Source of the DNA: a virus
Taxonomy: Duplodnaviria > Caudoviricetes
IMG/VR virus record: IMGVR_UViG_3300035492_000236
Length of the DNA stretch: 64,000 nt
Strand: one strand, 5' to 3'
Shown: positions 2 to 45,513 of the stretch, piece by piece
How positions within the stretch are numbered: position 1 is the first letter of the stretch
Layout of the letters: each line of letters starts with the position of its first letter
Position numbers and translations under genes: made by a program
The notes under the pieces: model-generated
What the model saw: only the letters and a program-made list of their open reading frames with translations
Told to the model about the DNA's origin: nothing
The model's database searches: none

Positions 2-907
2 CGACGTCAGGTGGTCGTTCTCGTACAATGCAATCATGTCCACCGGCTTGCCGTGTTTGGCGATTGCGGCCATGATGTCGTGAATGGTGGATTTATCAAA
101 CCGTCCCTTGGCTGCCAGGTATTTGATCGCTCGCGGATTGGTCGGTTGGCTGGAGAGCAGGTACTCGGTTTGCGTGACTGTGTCCGGCGACTTCAAGTTG
201 GCGTAGAACTCATTGCTATTGAAGTGGTTTGACGTGGTCAGCAAGAGCTGCTCAGTCAGCTCTTCGTTGTACGTACTACAAGCCATCAGGATCAGTCGAG
301 AGGTCAGGTAGTTCCAATCAGAACTCTCCGACAGTTCCATCAGTGCCGGGTCAACTAGCATGGTAGGGTGGTTAATCTGCTCCAGGTGCTTGATGATCGC
401 AGGGCTGGCGTCAGTTAGGCTGTACCGTCGCAGATCCTCCGGCTGCGTGATGGGCAAGGTACCGTCTTGAAACGCCTGTTCAATCAGTGCCCGCTTGACC
501 TCCACCGACACCGTGGGATTGTTCAACACGCTGTCTAGCCGCACGTTGTAATCGTGAGCTTCTTGCAATGTGATGTTATCGTAACACCGCACGAAGTACG
601 ACGGCGGCAACGTATCACGAAACACGTCCACGGTGAACGCCAGGTGGTTGATCTTGGGGTTAGTGGTAACCGCCACCAGCTCATTACGAGCAAAGGTGTT
701 AATGTCCATGGCCCGCACACGCTCAGGTGTCAGGCGTGTCCAAGCACGCAACATCTGTGCACGGGTTAGCGCCCCCTTACGCAGTAGAATATAAATGTCC
801 TCCTCTGGCAGGTCTAGACGTGTGGACTCATACCGTTCCAACACCTCCGAGATACCACTGGAACGATTTGTAAAGAACTTCAGGTTGTCCTTATTAATGA
901 CCAGCAT
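2..907 (-). CDS. Hypothetical protein, partial (runs off the left edge; not in the ORF track)
   Basis: ATG at 907 preceded by GGAGG. Manual translation MLVINKDNLKFFTNRSSGISEVLERYESTRLDLPEEDIYILLRKG... stays open to the window edge. Confidence 0.75.
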   Translation of the reverse strand, partial: MLVINKDNLKFFTNRSSGISEVLERYESTRLDLPEEDIYILLRKGALTRAQMLRAWTRLTPERVRAMDINTFARNELVAVTTNPKINHLAFTVDVFRDTLPPSYFVRCYDNITLQEAHDYNVRLDSVLNNPTVSVEVKRALIEQAFQDGTLPITQPEDLRRYSLTDASPAIIKHLEQINHPTMLVDPALMELSESSDWNYLTSRLILMACSTYNEELTEQLLLTTSNHFNSNEFYANLKSPDTVTQTEYLLSSQPTNPRAIKYLAAKGRFDKSTIHDIMAAIAKHGKPVDMIALYENDHLTS

Positions 908-1033
908 AGCTTATTCCTCCTGTCGTGTCTTCCTGACACGGGTATACAAAGTCCGTCTATCCCAAACGGTCCGTTGTGGCAGAACCTACTCCCCACCACA
1001 ACGGGAAGCTACATCACTGCCATGAAGCATGTG

Positions 1034-1047
1034 GATGATATATGTCC
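1034..1047 (-). promoter_or_regulatory. AT-rich phage promoter-like motif (GATGATATATGTCC on +)
   Basis: Matches the recurring GATRAWATAT/C motif found upstream of six other minus-strand genes. Confidence 0.4.
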
Positions 1048-1118
1048 AACATGTTTTACAAGGCAGGTCACGGACGCACCCTCTCCTCCTAATACGTCAG
1101 GCGCTATGTATAATAAGA

Positions 1119-1877
1119 TTAATCGCCCCGCTCGATGTACGAGTCTATTATCGATACGATACGGTAATACGATTCCAGGCTAATTACCGTGAGCTTTTGC
1201 TGATCAGGTTTAAACGCACTTGCTGGCGCCTCCACTGCACACACTAGCACCCCCTCACTGTTCGGCAAACGAAACGCACCTGCCCCATTGGCCAATAGCT
1301 TAGCGGCCAAATCCCCATCTATCAGGTTTCTACTAATACTGTCCAGTGTGTTTACCAACCGGTAGATGCGGTAGCCTTCTAACTCCCACAGTCGCTCATC
1401 CATCTTGGCGGCCAGGTCATCCATCAGATAACGAGAACCCAACGCACGGTCGAACGTCGCACCGGCGGCCGTTTTATTGATCGCCTGTGCCACCACAAAC
1501 CCACCAGGCAGAGAGCTGAGACCGAGCAGCGCAGGAATACCTTGAACGTTGATGTCTGTGATATCCTTATTCGCCAACGTGTGGAGCTTATTGAGGTGAC
1601 TACTGTCGACCTTGCGGTAATCTTTCCATAATAACCCATATATAGGACGGCGAAGTAACGTCAGGGCTGCTATCCGTCCTTGCGGCAACATTTCGAAGAA
1701 GCTCTCTTTCATGTCTACCATTTTAGGATTATCAAAGTAATAAAGGTAGCGACCCTCCATCGGCACCGACAACAACACCGCAATCGAGCGGTCGGTGGCA
1801 GCAAACTGCGCACCGCGATCAAAGAACCGTGCGGTCTTTTTGATCCACTCAATCGGGTTATTCAACAACTCACTCAT
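1119..1877 (-). CDS. Hypothetical protein (252 aa)
   Basis: Long ORF co-oriented with its neighbours, GGAG upstream of the ATG, no recognisable motif. Confidence 0.7.
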   Translation of the reverse strand: MSELLNNPIEWIKKTARFFDRGAQFAATDRSIAVLLSVPMEGRYLYYFDNPKMVDMKESFFEMLPQGRIAALTLLRRPIYGLLWKDYRKVDSSHLNKLHTLANKDITDINVQGIPALLGLSSLPGGFVVAQAINKTAAGATFDRALGSRYLMDDLAAKMDERLWELEGYRIYRLVNTLDSISRNLIDGDLAAKLLANGAGAFRLPNSEGVLVCAVEAPASAFKPDQQKLTVISLESYYRIVSIIDSYIERGD

Positions 1878-1955
1878 ACAAGGTCTCCGTTAAAGGTCAC
1901 AATTCAATAGAATGCGGATGGAGGTAAGAATTAACAGGTGGTTGTTTTGACGCAC

Positions 1956-1984
1956 AAAAAAAAAGGAGGGGCCGAAGCCCCTCC
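1956..1984 (-). terminator. Rho-independent terminator
   Basis: GGAGGGGC-TTCG-GCCCCTCC then a T9 run on the minus strand, downstream of 2005..2538. Confidence 0.9.
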
Positions 1985-2004
1985 AATTACTTAGCAGTGG
2001 TCAC

Positions 2005-2538
2005 TTACGGAGCAGCGGGAGCCGGGGCTTCAAAGCCATTCAGCAGGTTGGTCGCTACACGGGTCGCCAGAGAGTCAACTACAGCGATGTCGAAGTGGTT
2101 GGTGTATGCCAGGTTCTCGGCTTTTGCAGAGACGCGCAGTACGCCAGCAGACTGGACAGCAACAGTGAAGTCAGCGTCAGTCATGGCCACGCCGAACTTA
2201 CGCAGGATCTCTGCGAAGAACACGGCGTTGTCTTCAGGCAGACCGTTCACGTTCAGGGGCACGTCAACTTCACGGAAGTTGGGGTTGATCACGCTGAACA
2301 GTTCGGTCAGGTCGATGCGCTTGTAGGTGAACTCAACGTAGTCGCCTTCCACTTCAGAAGGCATGGTCAGCAGGTCGATCTGGACAGAAGTATCCTGGAT
2401 GTCGCCCACTTCGCCCACGAAGGGCTGCGGAGGCAGGATAGCCACGTCGGCTTCAACCAGACCCAGGTTGTTGGCGTCGTTGAGCAGACCCAGCAGCATT
2501 TCGACCGGGCGCTTGGTCATATCAGTGATGTATGCCAT
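2005..2538 (-). CDS. Putative virion structural protein, stand-alone anchor-module family member
   Basis: Shares FTYKRIDLTELFS and C-terminal LLNGF motifs with 2614..3186, 8241..8744 and the N-termini of 3315..4613 and 50882..52192. Strong C-ending codon bias suggests high expression. Confidence 0.65.
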   Translation of the reverse strand: MAYITDMTKRPVEMLLGLLNDANNLGLVEADVAILPPQPFVGEVGDIQDTSVQIDLLTMPSEVEGDYVEFTYKRIDLTELFSVINPNFREVDVPLNVNGLPEDNAVFFAEILRKFGVAMTDADFTVAVQSAGVLRVSAKAENLAYTNHFDIAVVDSLATRVATNLLNGFEAPAPAAP

Positions 2539-2613
2539 GGAGATTTTTCCTTTCTTGGGATTTGAGGATTAACGTAAGCAAACTCAGGCGGCAACTACGT
2601 CACCGCCAGACCA

Positions 2614-3186
2614 TTACTCAACTACGTCAGCTTCCTGAATCGGGCTGTAGATAAAGCCGTTCAGCTTAGTAGTGGTGATGGTTTCAGAGAAGTGCTTCGG
2701 CATCTGGAAAGAGACAGTGGGCTTGAAGACCATTGACTCAACGGTAAAGTCCAGGAAGTACCGGTTAGACACGCCATCCAGGCGACGGACCACGCTGACG
2801 GTTTCAGCAGCGGCGTTCAGATCGATACCGTCACGCAGGGCAGCAGCTTTAAACGCGGCGATGGCAGCGGTAACGGAGGCAACGGGATCCCATTCGTCGG
2901 GAGCGTACCAGTCGAAGTCGCCGTCTTCCAGGGTCATTGCAGTGACGTCAGCCAGCGCTACCTTGTTGAAGTACACTTCAACAGTATCGGGAGCGTAGTT
3001 GGCGTTTTGCAGGGTGACGGCGTACTCACGCGGAATGGCTTCTTCAGGAGCCACTTCACGCTCGTTCACCAGCAGAACATCTGCCAGAGTCAGCGCGGTA
3101 CCCACAGTGGCCACGTTGTCGTGGTTCACCAGCTCGATGAAGCTTTGCTTGTGGGCCTTAGTCATGTCAAGAACGTAGTTTGCCAT
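2614..3186 (-). CDS. Putative virion structural protein, stand-alone anchor-module family member
   Basis: N-terminus YVLDMTK, VYFNKVAL and C-terminal KLNGF, parallel to 2005..2538. Confidence 0.6.
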   Translation of the reverse strand: MANYVLDMTKAHKQSFIELVNHDNVATVGTALTLADVLLVNEREVAPEEAIPREYAVTLQNANYAPDTVEVYFNKVALADVTAMTLEDGDFDWYAPDEWDPVASVTAAIAAFKAAALRDGIDLNAAAETVSVVRRLDGVSNRYFLDFTVESMVFKPTVSFQMPKHFSETITTTKLNGFIYSPIQEADVVE

Positions 3187-3230
3187 GATTTTGTCCTTAT
3201 TGATGATGGGAAAGTGAGTGTAGACAAGTT

Positions 3231-3243
3231 TCTACATAGTATA
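3231..3243 (-). promoter_or_regulatory. Candidate late/middle promoter (TATACTATGTAGA on minus)
   Basis: Identical 13-mer also at 24058-24070. Contains TATG, the short late-promoter core reported for phiKZ nvRNAP, and lies upstream of a structural gene. Confidence 0.35.
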
Positions 3244-3314
3244 CAATATCGGCAGTTTATATCCGAAGCGCATCGCCCCAGTGTTTATGCGGGTTTGCTG
3301 AGAAAAGTTTTATT

Positions 3315-42597: not shown

Positions 42598-44006
42598 ATG
42601 GTCAAAATACCACCCGATCAAATCAAAGGTATCGAGTGTAAACATGTGGCATACCAGCAGTCCATCGACCGCTCGGAAAATGACATGCTACTCGTAAAGG
42701 AAGTGGTACACACAAAAGATGGTCAACAGATCCCACGCATTAAGCTGATGGAGAATTTCAAGCGGCCAGTTTACGTTACCAAGAAACCTTATCGGAACCA
42801 CGAAGACAAAAAAGAATACGAAGAAGAAAGTAAACTCGACCGGTACGATTGCACCCAGGCAGGCATGTCGACCACGCTACAACGGGCATTGGGTTTCAGC
42901 GTACCCAATCCCGCGAAGCAGCTGCGTGAGGTGTGTCGCAGTCCTTATATCTACAACGCGGACCTGAACTCCACCACCATTGTGAAAGCCGCCTACAAAC
43001 GTAAATGGCCCGACGTGGTGTCATTGAGTAAGGTGGCTGTACTCGATATCGAGACCGATGTGTTGTACGGGACTGGTGAGCCTATCATGGTATCAGTGAC
43101 CATGGGCAAGCATAAAGTCATCGCGTTTGCGGATTGGTGGGCGGCAAAAGTCCACAACCTCGAAGGGCGGCTAAAAGAACGGTACGCACACCACCTGTCA
43201 GCGGTCACCATCTACGGCAAAAAGAAAGGCACCTACGTTACTCGTAACTTGGTGGAAGAGACCGGGTCAGACATTACCGTCATTGCGGATTGCAATATTG
43301 CTGAAGGTCTTCGTCGGGTGATGGAGTTAGTGCATCAATGGATGCCAGACTTCTTGGCCATCTGGAACATCGACTTCGACTTACCGCACTTGTTGCGGAT
43401 GTTAGATAAGTACAACGTCCCGTATGAGGACGTGTTTGTGGATCCGTCAGTACCACAACGGTATCGTCGCGTGTGGTATAAGCAAGCCAAAGCCGTGCGC
43501 GAGACCAACTCCAAAAGCATTGCCCAACACCCGGCCGACCTTTGGCACGTGTTGTTTTGTTTGGCAGGCTTCTACACCGTAGATGCCATGGCAGTGTTCA
43601 AGAAGATACGGACCGCGTTAGGGAACGAACCGGACTACAAACTGGAAAACGTGTTAAGGCGACACCTGGGTATTGGTAAACTGCGGATTCCGGAGTGTAA
43701 GACCGACCCCGAACAGGGCCTACCCTGGCACGTGGAGATGCAGCGGGATTTCCCGATCGATTATGCTGTCTACTGTATGTTCGACTGTATCTCCATCGAA
43801 CTGCTAGATCAGCGTACCGGCGACTTGGCAGTTACCCTGCCAGTGTTGTGTGGCATTAGTGACTTTGCGATTTTCCCTTCACTACCGAAACGGCTGGTAG
43901 ATAACCTCACCTACTTCTATCGTGACCGTGGTCTGATTCCTGGATGTGTGGGGGCAGACATCACCACCGACGAAGACGAGGGGGTGATCTCTATGACTCA
44001 GTGGAT
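42598..44006 (+). CDS. Family-B DNA polymerase subunit with 3'-5' exonuclease (phiKZ gp82-like), exon 1
   Basis: ExoI VAVLDIETD, ExoII IWNIDFDLPH, ExoIII YCMFDC. The unspliced frame stops at 44034; the exon ends ...CAG TGG AT. Confidence 0.85.
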
Positions 44007-44526
44007 AAACTGTATGAAAGCGTGTTTTGCGTAGCGTATTGGTTGCCGTATTGTAACCATTGCCGCATTACTCGTTTTCAGTAACAACTGTCCCACCCTC
44101 GAGTGATTGGGGGTTGATCGATATCTAATTGCTGGAACATCCTAAAGCTCAAGACGCGACAACGTGACTCGAAAGGGTGAGCGTGACCGTTGCCGAAAGG
44201 CAGAAAAAAGACTTGAGATGCCCTATGCTTAAAGGAGTGCCCGTCGGGAGACGCGCCGCTAAGGGGTGATATAATGGATGATCAGCAGCCAAGGCTCTGT
44301 GGAACGTCGGGAGACGCGCTATGGGCAAGGTTCAACGACTATGGCCTAACTAGCCAGTACCTGCCAAGCGGCTGGGGAAATGGTATCCGCCTGCGGGTTG
44401 TATTCGATACAACAATGCGCAGGATGATAATATAGTCTGGACATCTGGGGAAACCCCAGAGCAGCGTCGCCGACCGGGAGGTCCGCGATGGCGGTTTGAG
44501 GTTAGCGGCCTCAAGCGAACATTTCG
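44007..44526 (+). ncRNA. Group I self-splicing intron, IA-like, no homing endonuclease ORF (520 nt)
   Basis: P AATTGCTGGAA (44127-37), Q ATCAGCAGCC (44281-90), R GTTCAACGACTAT (44330-42), S GATAATATAGTC (44426-37). P7 GACTAT/ATAGTC, P3 GATATC/GGTATC and P4 TGCTG/CAGCA pair. The exon ends in U and the intron ends in G. Confidence 0.92.
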
Positions 44527-44863
44527 TGTAACATTACCTGCCCATATGGTGGAACTCAATGGTCTTAAATGCGTTGCAGAGATCCCCGAACTCACCACTA
44601 CATTTCGGGCACAGACTGCTGACGATGATATCACACAGGCTTACCCTACTGGGGAAGTGATCATGAACGTCTCTAAGGAGACGACCTGTATCGAATTATG
44701 TGAGATCGAAGGCGTGTCGGAAGAAGCCCGGCGTCGTCAAGGCATCAACCTCACGGGTGGCAATACTAACGCCATCGAGATATGTAATGAATTGTTGAAC
44801 ATGCCGTACATCCACGATGTATTGGACGTATTTAAAGCTGACATTGAGGCAGGATTAGTATGA
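44527..44863 (+). CDS. DNA polymerase subunit, exon 2
   Basis: Splice junction TGG AT|T GTA ACA TTA CCT gives WIVTLPAHMVELNG, in frame with the track ORF 44546..44863. The spliced CDS is 1746 nt (581 aa). Confidence 0.85.
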
Positions 44864-45513
44864 AATCGTTTTTAGCGATGGCCATTGAGTCCCACGGTGG
44901 CAAGGAAGAAGAAAAAGAGTACAGTTACTTCGTTAAGCTCACTCAGGCGCAATTGAACGACATCATTGCCATGGAAGGGGCGGTCGTAGGTAGCACCTTC
45001 TCCGAAACCAAACTGCCCTCAGAGAACGGACTGGCGTCGCGACTGCGGCGTTATCAGAAAGACGGGGTTGCTACTTATGAGCTCACAACTAAGGAGTACC
45101 ACGGTGAGCACAAGACCAAACTGGAGACCAACGACACGCTGTCTGAAGCGAACTACCGCTCGCTAATGCAGCTGGGCATCAGCACTAACGTGCGTAGCCG
45201 CATTCATCTGCCAGTTTACAAGCACGGTGAGCCGGTGATGAAGAAGCACGGCCCACTGCAGTGGGAGTTTGATTTGTATCACGTCGCTGACGACAACCAA
45301 GTCAGTGCGTGGGCAAAAGTGGAGCTGGAAGTAGATGTGGTGGCATTTGGCGACATTATCGACTTGATTCCGTTCGCGTACGATGACCTGATCCCCTCAG
45401 ACTCCAGCAAGGAAGAAGACCGGGCCTTTATTGCACACCTCTACGCCAACGTCTACGACGTGTCTAAAAACCCAACTAGTGCTGCAGAAGAAGACGTGCT
45501 CACGTTCTCGTGA
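44860..45513 (+). CDS. CYTH / triphosphate-tunnel metalloenzyme-like protein
   Basis: ExExK-like EEEKEY, then SRLRR, YELTTK, KLETN, RSRIHL, WEFDLY and KVELEVD in the CYTH motif order. Confidence 0.6.
   Translation: MKSFLAMAIESHGGKEEEKEYSYFVKLTQAQLNDIIAMEGAVVGSTFSETKLPSENGLASRLRRYQKDGVATYELTTKEYHGEHKTKLETNDTLSEANYRSLMQLGISTNVRSRIHLPVYKHGEPVMKKHGPLQWEFDLYHVADDNQVSAWAKVELEVDVVAFGDIIDLIPFAYDDLIPSDSSKEEDRAFIAHLYANVYDVSKNPTSAAEEDVLTFS

What the first reader, a model, noticed from the sequence alone, without database searches (positions are those of the whole stretch)
44007..44526. Hidden ORF-less group I intron splits the DNA polymerase gene
Seen in sequence: the track shows two unrelated ORFs (42598..44034 and 44546..44863) with a 500-nt gap. 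The gap holds complete P/Q/R/S elements and pairings P3, P4, P5 (CATCC/GGATG), P6, P7 (GACTAT/ATAGTC), P8 and several P9 hairpins. Two helices lie between P7 and P3, an IA-like feature. Cutting after U44006 and after G44526 restores one frame, QW-I-VTLPAH (581 aa). No endonuclease ORF is present. Established: group I introns occur in phage DNA polymerase and RNAP genes. Inference: full-length polymerase here depends on splicing, and the intron is either a relic or is moved by an endonuclease encoded elsewhere. The P1/IGS pairing is weak by eye (GGAU with GUUU), so the 5' site rests mainly on frame restoration.
Basis: partly seen in the sequence, partly recalled or inferred. Interest (0 to 1): 0.85.

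Follow-up and report, generated by a model that had tools for sequence, protein, structure and literature searches.

The report
Self-splicing intron in jumbo-phage DNA polymerase
A 520-base self-splicing RNA element (a group I intron with no gene of its own) interrupts the DNA polymerase gene of an uncultured phiKZ-like giant phage, and must be cut out of the RNA to make the full enzyme; this is a well-known kind of element, found here at a spot that many related phages also have occupied.

Summary
Confirmed. Window 44007-44526 (+) is an ORF-less group I intron. It splits the phiKZ-gp82-type DNA polymerase N subunit (DNAP-N) gene of an uncultured jumbo phage from tar-pit metagenomes.

- Rfam RF00028 hits at 51.4 bits (gathering score 50).
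- Both flanking ORFs match one PHROG polymerase profile back to back (positions 4-468 and 469-568).
- Cutting after U44006 and after G44526 gives a 581-aa protein. It aligns without gaps to intron-less relatives, two of them 82-83 % identical and exactly 581 aa.
- Four metagenomic relatives carry homologous introns at the same nucleotide position.
- On these five introns, 91 % of cells pair and 51 of 100 pairs show compensatory changes.
- Exon 2 is under the same purifying selection as exon 1 (pN/pS 0.13).

Three sister introns (two complete, one cut by a contig end) carry an HNH endonuclease ORF in the P1 loop; the window has an 83-nt hairpin arm there. PhiPA3 has an unannotated intron 30 codons downstream in the same gene.

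Splicing itself is not shown, because no RNA data exist. This is a new member of a known kind. Another reader of this scan noted the same stretch.

The parts
42598..44006 (+). Exon 1 of the DNAP-N (phiKZ gp82-type family-B DNA polymerase, exonuclease + N-terminal palm) gene; ends with the first two bases (AU) of Ile470
   Evidence: phrog_3011 'DNA polymerase', profile positions 4-468, E 1.1e-161. Weak DNA_pol_B_exo1 match. Aligns to pVa-21, Kwan, SPN3US and phiKZ gp82.
44007..44526 (+). ORF-less group I intron, 520 nt, IA-like (P7.1/P7.2 present)
   Evidence: RF00028 at 51.4 bits. Homologous introns sit at the same position in L010, L011, L013 and L014. Covariation: 51 of 100 pairs compensatory.
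44003..44007 (+). P1 5' strand (GGAU|A), with the 5' splice site after U44006
   Evidence: Unconstrained MFE pairs it with 44089-44093, and L014 does the same. The exon-terminal U is conserved in all 5 same-site introns.
44011..44087 (+). Long hairpin arm in the P1 loop (L1); this is where the sister introns hold their HNH ORF
   Evidence: MFE structure with an 8-bp UGAAAGCG/CGUUUUCA stem and a 7-bp tip. The ORFs of L010 and L011 lie between the 5' splice site and the IGS.
44032..44034 (+). UAG that ends read-through of exon 1 into the intron (8 extra codons)
   Evidence: ORF list.
44089..44093 (+). Internal guide sequence U-GUCC; G44090 pairs with U44006
   Evidence: GUCCC sits 35 nt upstream of the AAUUGC/AACUGC P3-P4 anchor in all five same-site introns. 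The guide covaries with the 5' exon in related introns of other genes.
44095..44114 (+). P2 hairpin (7-8 bp) with GNRA loop GUGA
   Evidence: 7 of 8 pairs show compensatory changes across the five introns.
44120..44125 (+). P3 5' strand (GAUAUC); pairs with 44382-44387 (GGUAUC)
   Evidence: 4 of 6 pairs compensatory.
44130..44287 (+). P4 (44130-35/44282-87), P5 (44138-42/44276-80) and a large P5 extension (44148-44267)
   Evidence: RNAalifold and pair counts. This block is 76-79 % identical to introns in other phages.
44288..44331 (+). P6/P6a/P6b
44337..44342 (+). P7 5' strand (GACUAU); pairs with 44432-44437 (AUAGUC)
   Evidence: Invariant in all five introns.
44343..44376 (+). P7.1 (44343-55) and P7.2 (44360-76), between P7 and P3'
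   Evidence: P7.2 appears in the consensus fold with compensatory pairs. P7.1 is read from the alignment (GGC/GCC, GGU/ACC-type, GGGG/CCCC).
44382..44387 (+). P3 3' strand
44390..44423 (+). P8 (CCUGCG/CGCAGG, with an inner 7-bp hairpin)
   Evidence: 5 of 6 pairs compensatory.
44432..44437 (+). P7 3' strand
44444..44516 (+). P9 (44444-60), P9.1 (44465-90), P9.2 (44494-44516)
44526..44526 (+). Terminal G (omega-G), last intron nucleotide
   Evidence: A G at this position is conserved in all five same-site introns and in PhiPA3.
44527..44863 (+). Exon 2: third base of Ile470, then VTLPAHM..., including the motif-A-like ADDDITQAYP; stop at 44861-63
   Evidence: phrog_3011 profile positions 469-568, E 4.1e-38. 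pN/pS 0.13. No SD before the ATG at 44546.

Best explanation
Window 44007-44526 is a structurally intact, ORF-less group I intron (IA-like, with P7.1/P7.2 and a large P5 extension). It lies inside codon Ile470 (phase 2) of the gene for the N-terminal subunit (DNAP-N, phiKZ gp82 type) of the split family-B DNA polymerase of an uncultured phiKZ-like jumbo phage.

Inferred mechanism, by analogy with characterised group I introns. The pre-mRNA folds so that the guide GUCC (44090-93) pairs with the exon end GGAU, giving the U44006-G44090 wobble. An external guanosine attacks after U44006. The freed exon then attacks after omega-G44526. The ligated mRNA reads UGG-AU|U-GUA and encodes a 581-aa protein. 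Its exon 2 supplies the motif-A-like ADxDxxxYP segment, so an unspliced message would give a 478-aa product without it.

The intron belongs to a lineage that occupies this exact nucleotide position in many related phages. Some members carry an HNH homing endonuclease ORF in the P1 loop, where the window copy has only an 83-nt hairpin arm. The window copy is therefore either a derivative that lost the endonuclease or a form that never had one. It cannot home by itself. Because it disrupts the target site, it should make this allele immune to the sister endonucleases, and those could mobilise it in trans.

Shown here: intron identity, boundaries, conserved fold, host-gene continuity, and selection on exon 2. 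Inferred: actual splicing, immunity, and mobilisation in trans.
For: 1. RF00028 full-length hit at 51.4 bits against a gathering score of 50, E 3.9e-10.
2. ORF1 and ORF2 match adjacent parts of one profile, phrog_3011 positions 4-468 and 469-568.
3. The spliced product is 581 aa and aligns without gaps to uninterrupted homologs. WIVTLPAHM is identical in pVa-21 and Kwan, and phiKZ gp82 reads DWIVTLPSYM. Relatives P0002 and P0003 (82-83 % identity) are exactly 581 aa and continuous.
4. Homologous introns lie at the same nucleotide position in L010, L011, L013 and L014. Each follows TGGAU and ends in G, and each restores an Ile codon followed by V-T-L. Intron-less alleles read TGGAT|TGT.
5. Fold conservation: 94 RNAalifold pairs, 43 compensatory. 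With P3 and P8 added, 91.1 % of cells pair against 32-39 % in slid controls, 51 of 100 pairs are compensatory against 7-9, and 0 of 500 shuffles reach the observed values.
6. No decay: the window intron forms 98 of 100 consensus pairs and has 12 of 177 private substitutions, like its sisters L014, L010 and L011.
7. P1 with the U-G wobble comes out of unconstrained MFE folding in both the window and L014. The guide position covaries with the 5' exon in related introns of RNAP beta-prime and nrd genes.
8. Exon 2 has pN/pS 0.13, equal to exon 1, and the fewest private amino-acid changes (4 of 92) among the three closest relatives.
9. The ATG at 44546 has no SD, unlike neighbouring genes, and it is an internal conserved Met.
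10. The sister-intron ORFs are HNH endonucleases, phrog_59, E 1e-23 to 1e-28.
Against: - No RNA evidence: splicing has not been observed.
- The Rfam score is only 1.4 bits above the gathering score, although sister introns score up to 73 bits and the covariation evidence is independent of Rfam.
- P1 has only 4 exon base pairs and P10 is weak.
- The Logan assembly graph breaks inside the intron at a 63-nt core (44423-44485) shared with a paralogous intron, so the join across it rests on the assembler. It is validated by exon 1 and exon 2 belonging to one gene and by conserved synteny on both sides.
Confidence: 0.9

Rival explanations
1. The element is a dead intron relic that no longer splices. 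The polymerase subunit is then either a pseudogene or is made as two separate polypeptides (478 aa and about 105 aa) that assemble non-covalently, as DNAP-N and DNAP-C already do in this phage family.
For: Splicing is not demonstrated. The Rfam score is close to threshold. Chimallivirus polymerases are already naturally split into subunits (preprint 10.64898/2026.10.01.755736). An in-frame ATG exists at 44546.
Against: The core is intact: 98 of 100 consensus pairs form and there is no excess of private substitutions. The U at the 5' splice site, omega-G, the IGS and P7 are all conserved. The ATG at 44546 lacks an SD and would drop the conserved V-T-L-P-A-H. Exon 2 is under strong purifying selection, equal to exon 1. 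A decaying ribozyme would not keep 51 compensatory pairs.
Confidence: 0.06
2. The intron is real but its boundaries are shifted by one base (cut after A44007 and after U44527). This gives the same protein through an AUA Ile codon.
For: UGG-AUA-GUA also encodes W-I-V (from the sequence).
Against: It would put A rather than U at the 5' splice site and U rather than G at the intron's 3' end, against both group I rules. All five same-site introns have U before the cut and G at the end, whatever base follows. The P1 wobble involves U44006.
Confidence: 0.02
3. Assembly artefact: the intron, or its 3' part, was joined wrongly through the 63-nt core it shares with a paralogous intron of the same genome.
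For: Logan contigs end at 44452/44456. The 63-nt piece has about 2.4 times the flanking depth, and other contigs of equal depth carry a related intron.
Against: The sequence on either side of the repeat is exon 1 and exon 2 of the same gene family, in frame, with the same downstream neighbour (phrog_7768) as in relatives. Sister introns at the same site have the same overall architecture through to the 3' end.
Confidence: 0.02

Closest known systems
Group I introns in phage DNA polymerase genes (SPO1/SP82 with I-HmuI, Bastille with I-BasI, LUZ24; cited in PMC11620839, PMC12908238, PMC10914365)
   Same: A self-splicing group I intron that interrupts a conserved part of an essential phage DNA polymerase gene. 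The sister copies carry HNH endonucleases, as SPO1 and Bastille do.
   Different: The host gene is the phiKZ-gp82-type DNAP-N subunit of a split polymerase, not a family-A or T4-type single-chain enzyme. This copy has no ORF. Splicing is not shown experimentally here; it is shown for LUZ24 in PMC10914365.
PhiPA3 gp210 intron in the RNAP beta-subunit gene (Birkholz et al. 2024, PMC11620839)
   Same: A group I intron in an essential, conserved nucleic-acid polymerase gene of a phiKZ-like jumbo phage, associated with an HNH endonuclease (in the sister copies).
   Different: Different gene and site. The window copy lacks the endonuclease, so no weapon function can be assigned to it.
Unannotated ORF-less intron in PhiPA3 gene 085 (DNAP-N), found here (L017 2352-2695)
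   Same: Same host gene family. ORF-less. The 5' exon ends in U, omega-G is present, GUCC lies 10 nt into the intron and a P2 hairpin follows. RF00028 scores 71.7 bits.
   Different: It sits 30 codons downstream, after A-D-L-D of motif A. It is 344 nt long and only distantly similar in sequence to the window intron (45 bits by blastn).
Subgroup IA2 phage introns (T4 td/nrdB/sunY, Twort); recalled from general knowledge, not tested
   Same: Two extra helices (P7.1/P7.2) between P7 and P3'. The P3-P5 block is 76 % identical to introns in Staphylococcus Twort-like/K-like phages.
   Different: Subgroup membership could not be tested with subgroup-specific models. The P5 extension and the long P1 arm are lineage-specific.

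Membership tests
Group I catalytic intron (Rfam RF00028) | Covariance-model score at or above the curated gathering score | tested here: met
   51.4 bits against 50, full model 1-253, E 3.9e-10.
Group I catalytic intron (Rfam RF00028) | Conserved core helices P3-P9, including the P3/P7 pseudoknot, supported by covariation | tested here: met
   91.1 % of cells pair. 51 of 100 pairs are compensatory, against 7-9 in slid controls. P3 has 4 of 6 and P8 has 5 of 6 compensatory pairs; P7 is invariant.
Group I catalytic intron (Rfam RF00028) | 5' splice site after a U that forms a U-G wobble with the internal guide sequence in P1 | tested here: met
   U44006-G44090 pair in the unconstrained MFE. GUCC is conserved in register in all five introns. 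The guide covaries with the exon in related introns.
Group I catalytic intron (Rfam RF00028) | Terminal guanosine (omega-G) at the 3' splice site | tested here: met
   G44526; a G at this position is conserved in all five same-site introns and in PhiPA3.
Group I catalytic intron (Rfam RF00028) | Guanosine-dependent self-splicing that yields ligated exons | not testable with these tools
   No RNA run holds the sequence. Needs RT-PCR or an in-vitro assay.
Subgroup IA (IA2-like) | Extra helices P7.1/P7.2 between P7 and P3' | tested here: met
   44343-55 and 44360-76. P7.2 is in the consensus fold, and P7.1 varies compensatorily in window, L014 and L013.
Subgroup IA (IA2-like) | Best match to a subgroup-specific covariance model | not testable with these tools
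   Rfam holds a single group I model.
Mobile (homing) group I intron | Intron-encoded homing endonuclease ORF | tested here: not met
   The intron contains only ORFs of 53 and 59 aa that lie across core helices. tblastn with four sister HNH proteins finds nothing in the 64 kb at E < 0.06. Sisters L010, L011 and L012 do carry HNH ORFs.
phiKZ gp82-type DNAP-N (phrog_3011) | Full-length homology to the family, including the C-terminal motif-A-like segment | tested here: met
   phrog_3011 E 1.1e-161 and 4.1e-38. phiKZ gp82 at 35 % identity, E 2.7e-66 and 4.7e-45. ADxDxxxYP is aligned in exon 2.

The most novel reading that the evidence does not exclude
The region around motif A of the chimallivirus-type DNAP-N gene is a family-wide, multi-site arena of intron warfare, with at least three insertion points within 32 codons. 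HNH-bearing introns attack intron-less alleles of co-infecting relatives, as PhiPA3 gp210 does at the RNAP gene. ORF-less copies such as this one persist because they shield the target site. If the phage is nucleus-forming, this implies that these ribozymes splice efficiently in a ribosome-free compartment. T4 introns, by contrast, need ongoing translation (Sandegren and Sjoberg 2007, cited in PMC10914365). The long P1 arm may be the fold-stabilising substitute.
Probability: 0.3. Interest if true: 0.6.

Novelty: new member of a known kind. Interest (0 to 1): 0.42.

Why it matters
**Annotation.** The polymerase N subunit of this phage is 581 aa, not 478 plus 105. The same error exists in deposited genomes: PhiPA3 gene 085 is truncated at motif A, and RNAP beta-prime is split in Shewanella phage FishSpeaker and Aeromonas phage pAEv1810.

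**Biology.** An essential replication gene of phiKZ-like jumbo phages turns out to be a recurrent target of group I introns and their HNH endonucleases. This extends the one studied case of intron-mediated competition in this group (PhiPA3 gp210, RNAP). PhiPA3 also offers a cultured system for testing splicing and immunity at the polymerase gene.

**Scope.** The element itself is a textbook kind of element.

Tried and rejected
- Megablast of the gene against INPHARED phages: no match. The phage is novel; the nearest relatives are Vibrio phages pVa-21 and pVp-JHP1101 at about 64 % amino-acid identity.
- The search for related loci in IMG/VR with ORF1: nothing.
- No whole genome is held for the window.
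- Sequencing runs: only four tar-pit metagenome DNA runs hold the stretch; no RNA holder was listed, so splicing could not be observed.
- Read laying on Logan contigs: no intron-less joint was seen. Contigs drop rare variants, so this says nothing about polymorphism.
- An exact-pattern scan of JGI metagenome contigs for the shared 41-nt core, meant to recover the paralogous intron: 0 matches.
- An 8-nt word in the intron (44050-57, AUUGUAAC) identical to the ligated-exon junction: reached by 4 % of shuffles and absent from the ORF-less sisters, so treated as chance.
- Recent transposition between the W-I site and the PhiPA3 A-D-L-D site, suggested by the shared GGAU/GUCC: not supported, because the PhiPA3 intron is only distantly similar.
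- Chimallin check: Pfam gave nothing for the large ORFs at 58.8-63.3 kb. C-terminal fragments of two annotated nuclear-shell proteins gave no tblastn hit in the window. Nucleus formation is therefore not shown here.
- Literature: no report of an intron in the gp82-type DNAP-N gene was found in the searchable library. This is not proof that none exists.

Full report
**Observation**

The window holds a 478-aa ORF (42598..44034) and a 105-aa ORF (44546..44863) on the + strand, separated by about 500 nt. A scan of the whole window against Rfam 15 gives a single hit: RF00028 (group I intron) at 44040-44461 on the + strand. The hit covers the full model at 51.4 bits (gathering score 50, E 3.9e-10). 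Nothing else appears even at E <= 0.1. MFE folding recovers P4, P5, the P5 extension, P6, P7, P8 and three P9 hairpins.

**Host gene**

Both ORFs match the same PHROG family, phrog_3011 'DNA polymerase'. They match it back to back: ORF1 covers profile positions 4-468 (E 1.1e-161) and ORF2 covers 469-568 (E 4.1e-38).

Homologs in Vibrio phage pVa-21 (586 aa), Erwinia phage Kwan (590 aa), Salmonella phage SPN3US (594 aa) and phiKZ gp82 (638 aa) are single uninterrupted ORFs. Except in phiKZ, they sit in the same neighbourhood: a virion structural gene upstream on the opposite strand and an RNAP beta subunit gene downstream.

A recent preprint identifies phiKZ gp082 as DNAP-N, the exonuclease-bearing N-terminal subunit of a three-subunit chimallivirus DNA polymerase (10.64898/2026.10.01.755736). 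The window protein matches gp82 at E 2.7e-66 and 4.7e-45.

**Boundaries**

Joining 42598-44006 to 44527-44863 gives 581 aa. The product aligns without any gap to the homologs. The junction string W-I-V-T-L-P-A-H-M is identical in pVa-21 and Kwan, and phiKZ reads D-W-I-V-T-L-P-S-Y-M.

The large protein database holds two close relatives (P0002 and P0003, 82-83 % identity). Both are continuous and exactly 581 aa.

The alternative one-base-shifted cut would give the same protein, but it violates both the U(-1) and the omega-G rules.

Comparative data settle the matter. Four other metagenomic phages (L010, L011, L013, L014) have insertions at exactly this point. In each, the 5' exon ends TGGAU and the insertion ends in G. 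The next exon base (U, C, C or A) completes an Ile codon followed by V-T-L. Intron-less alleles read TGGAT|TGT. RF00028 hits all four: 45.7, 35.1, 46.6 and 73.3 bits.

**Structure**

The five introns are homologous; window against L014 is 75 % identical over 374 nt.

- RNAalifold on their alignment (A1) predicts 94 pairs, 43 of them with compensatory double changes.
- I added P3 (pseudoknotted with P7) and P8 by hand and counted pairs. 91.1 % of cells pair, against 32-39 % when partners are slid by 1-3 columns.
- 51 of 100 pairs show compensatory changes, against 7-9 in the slid controls. None of 500 column shuffles reaches the observed values.
- Window coordinates of every helix are in the parts list.
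- Two helices (P7.1, P7.2) lie between P7 and P3', as in subgroup IA. Subgroup membership could not be tested formally.

**P1 and the guide sequence**

In all five introns GUCCC lies 35 nt upstream of the P3-P4 anchor (UAAUUGCUGG or UAACUGCUGG). A 7-bp hairpin with a GNRA loop follows it, and that stem is completely different in sequence in each lineage.

Unconstrained folding of exon(-10) to the IGS gives P1 = GGAUA/UGUCC with the U44006-G44090 wobble. It is closed by a long hairpin arm. This holds both in the window and in L014, whose arm is unrelated in sequence.

The guide position is validated across genes:

- Related introns in RNAP beta-prime (NADFDG|D) of Shewanella phage FishSpeaker and Aeromonas phage pAEv1810 pair exon GACGGU with GCCGUC or GCCGUG.
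- An Enterococcus phage nrd intron pairs GCCU with GGGC, followed by the same P2-GNRA hairpin.

**Is it still functional?**

- The window intron forms 98 of 100 consensus pairs.
- It has 12 private substitutions at 177 columns where the other four agree. That is the same as L014, L010 and L011 (9-14).
- Exon 2 carries the motif-A-like ADDDITQAYP.
- Against the intron-less relative L009, pN/pS is 0.13 in both exons, with synonymous sites near saturation. In exon 2 the window lineage has the fewest private amino-acid changes: 4 of 92, against 9-10.
- The ATG at 44546 is a conserved internal Met and has no Shine-Dalgarno sequence. The start of ORF1 and the next gene both have one.

All of this argues that exon 2 is translated as part of the full protein, which requires splicing. 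Splicing was not observed directly. The DNA occurs only in four tar-pit metagenome DNA runs, and no RNA run was listed.

**Mobility**

The intron has no endonuclease ORF. In L010, L011 and L012 a 283-344-aa ORF lies between the 5' splice site and the IGS, that is, in the P1 loop (shown for L010 and L011; the L012 contig ends before its core). L015 has a 447-aa ORF upstream of its intron core at a neighbouring site. All four are mutually homologous HNH endonucleases (phrog_59, E 1e-23 to 1e-28).

The window has an 83-nt hairpin arm at that place, and nothing HNH-like related to these in 64 kb. The window copy is thus a derivative that lost the endonuclease, or a form that never had one. By established homing logic (reviewed in PMC12908238), an occupied site is immune to the cognate endonuclease. 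An ORF-less intron can also be mobilised in trans. Both points are inferences here.

**Wider pattern**

Among the 120 best homolog clusters, at least 12 end right after (G)W-I, which is this site. About 10 end roughly 30 residues downstream, in or next to the A-D-x-D of motif A.

L015 is cut after A-D, and its intron scores 41 bits.

Among 291 deposited phage genomes with a homolog, the 60 rows listed included PhiPA3, which is split. Its gene 085 is annotated as ending at ...HVADLD*. A 344-nt ORF-less group I intron (71.7 bits) follows, and the homology to gp82 resumes at IVSTYPNVSQ, which is unannotated.

I found no description of these polymerase introns in the searchable literature. The known chimallivirus intron is the gp210 intron in the PhiPA3 RNAP gene (PMC11620839).

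**A paralog in the same genome**

Logan contigs of the four runs break inside the intron. The 63-nt piece 44423-44485 has about 2.4 times the flanking depth. Contigs of equal depth end or begin with a related but different intron that has the same 3' terminus, GAACAUUUCG.

Unchecked notes from other first-stage readers report two ORF-less introns in virion RNAP genes and one in thyA elsewhere in this genome. That is consistent with this signal, but I could not fetch those regions.

The repeat raises the question of a mis-join. That is excluded by exon 1 and exon 2 belonging to one gene and by the conserved synteny.

**Verdict**

The observation and the interpretation are both correct, apart from the IGS. 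The element is a well-preserved ORF-less group I intron at a recurrent homing site in the jumbo-phage DNAP-N gene. It is a new member of a known kind, of moderate interest mainly for annotation and for the intron-hotspot pattern it reveals.

Noticed in passing
L017 (PhiPA3 NC_028999) 2352-2695; exon 2 about 2696-2905: PhiPA3 gene 085 (DNAP-N) is annotated as truncated at ...HVADLD*. An unannotated 344-nt ORF-less group I intron (RF00028, 71.7 bits) follows, and exon 2 (IVSTYPNVSQ...) is not annotated.
   Followed up: yes
window 44423-44485: This 63-nt intron core has about 2.4 times the flanking depth in the source metagenomes. Contigs of equal depth (62 kb and 19.5 kb) end or begin with a related, non-identical intron that has the same 3' end. 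The same phage genome therefore likely holds a paralogous intron outside the window.
   Followed up: partly
L015 4480-6233; protein clusters P0072, P0077, P0089, P0096, P0107 and others: A second cluster of insertion points lies about 30 codons downstream, in the motif-A A-D-x-D (after A-D in L015, after A-D-L-D in PhiPA3). L015 has a 447-aa HNH ORF and a group I core (41 bits).
   Followed up: partly
L004 (Shewanella phage FishSpeaker) about 1950-2356; L005 (Aeromonas phage pAEv1810) about 1950-2270: Unannotated group I introns (72.5 and 42.3 bits) split the RNAP beta-prime-like gene inside the universal NADFDG|D motif. The deposited CDSs read through into the intron.
   Followed up: partly
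L006 (Enterococcus phage phiEF17H) about 1940-2290; L007 (Staphylococcus phage SA11) 1983-2609: The ribonucleotide reductase gene is split by an unannotated group I intron (41.9 bits). The SA11 portal gene is split into three CDSs, and the gap contains a RAGATH-18 RNA (60.6 bits) next to a stretch similar to the window intron's P3-P5 block.
   Followed up: no
window 44860-45513: The 217-aa gene overlaps the polymerase stop (ATGA). It belongs to phrog_7768 (unknown function) and is syntenic in pVa-21 and L009. Other readers suggest a CYTH-like enzyme; this was not tested here.
   Followed up: no
window 44050-44057: The 8-nt word AUUGUAAC in the tip of the P1 arm equals the ligated-exon junction. 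It is reached by 4 % of shuffles and is absent from the ORF-less sister introns, so it is probably chance.
   Followed up: yes
L018 (Pseudomonas phage vB_PQ1 PQ516283) 860-3309: The DNAP-N homolog is annotated as five consecutive short 'DNA polymerase' CDSs. This looks like frameshift or assembly errors rather than introns; it was not examined.
   Followed up: no
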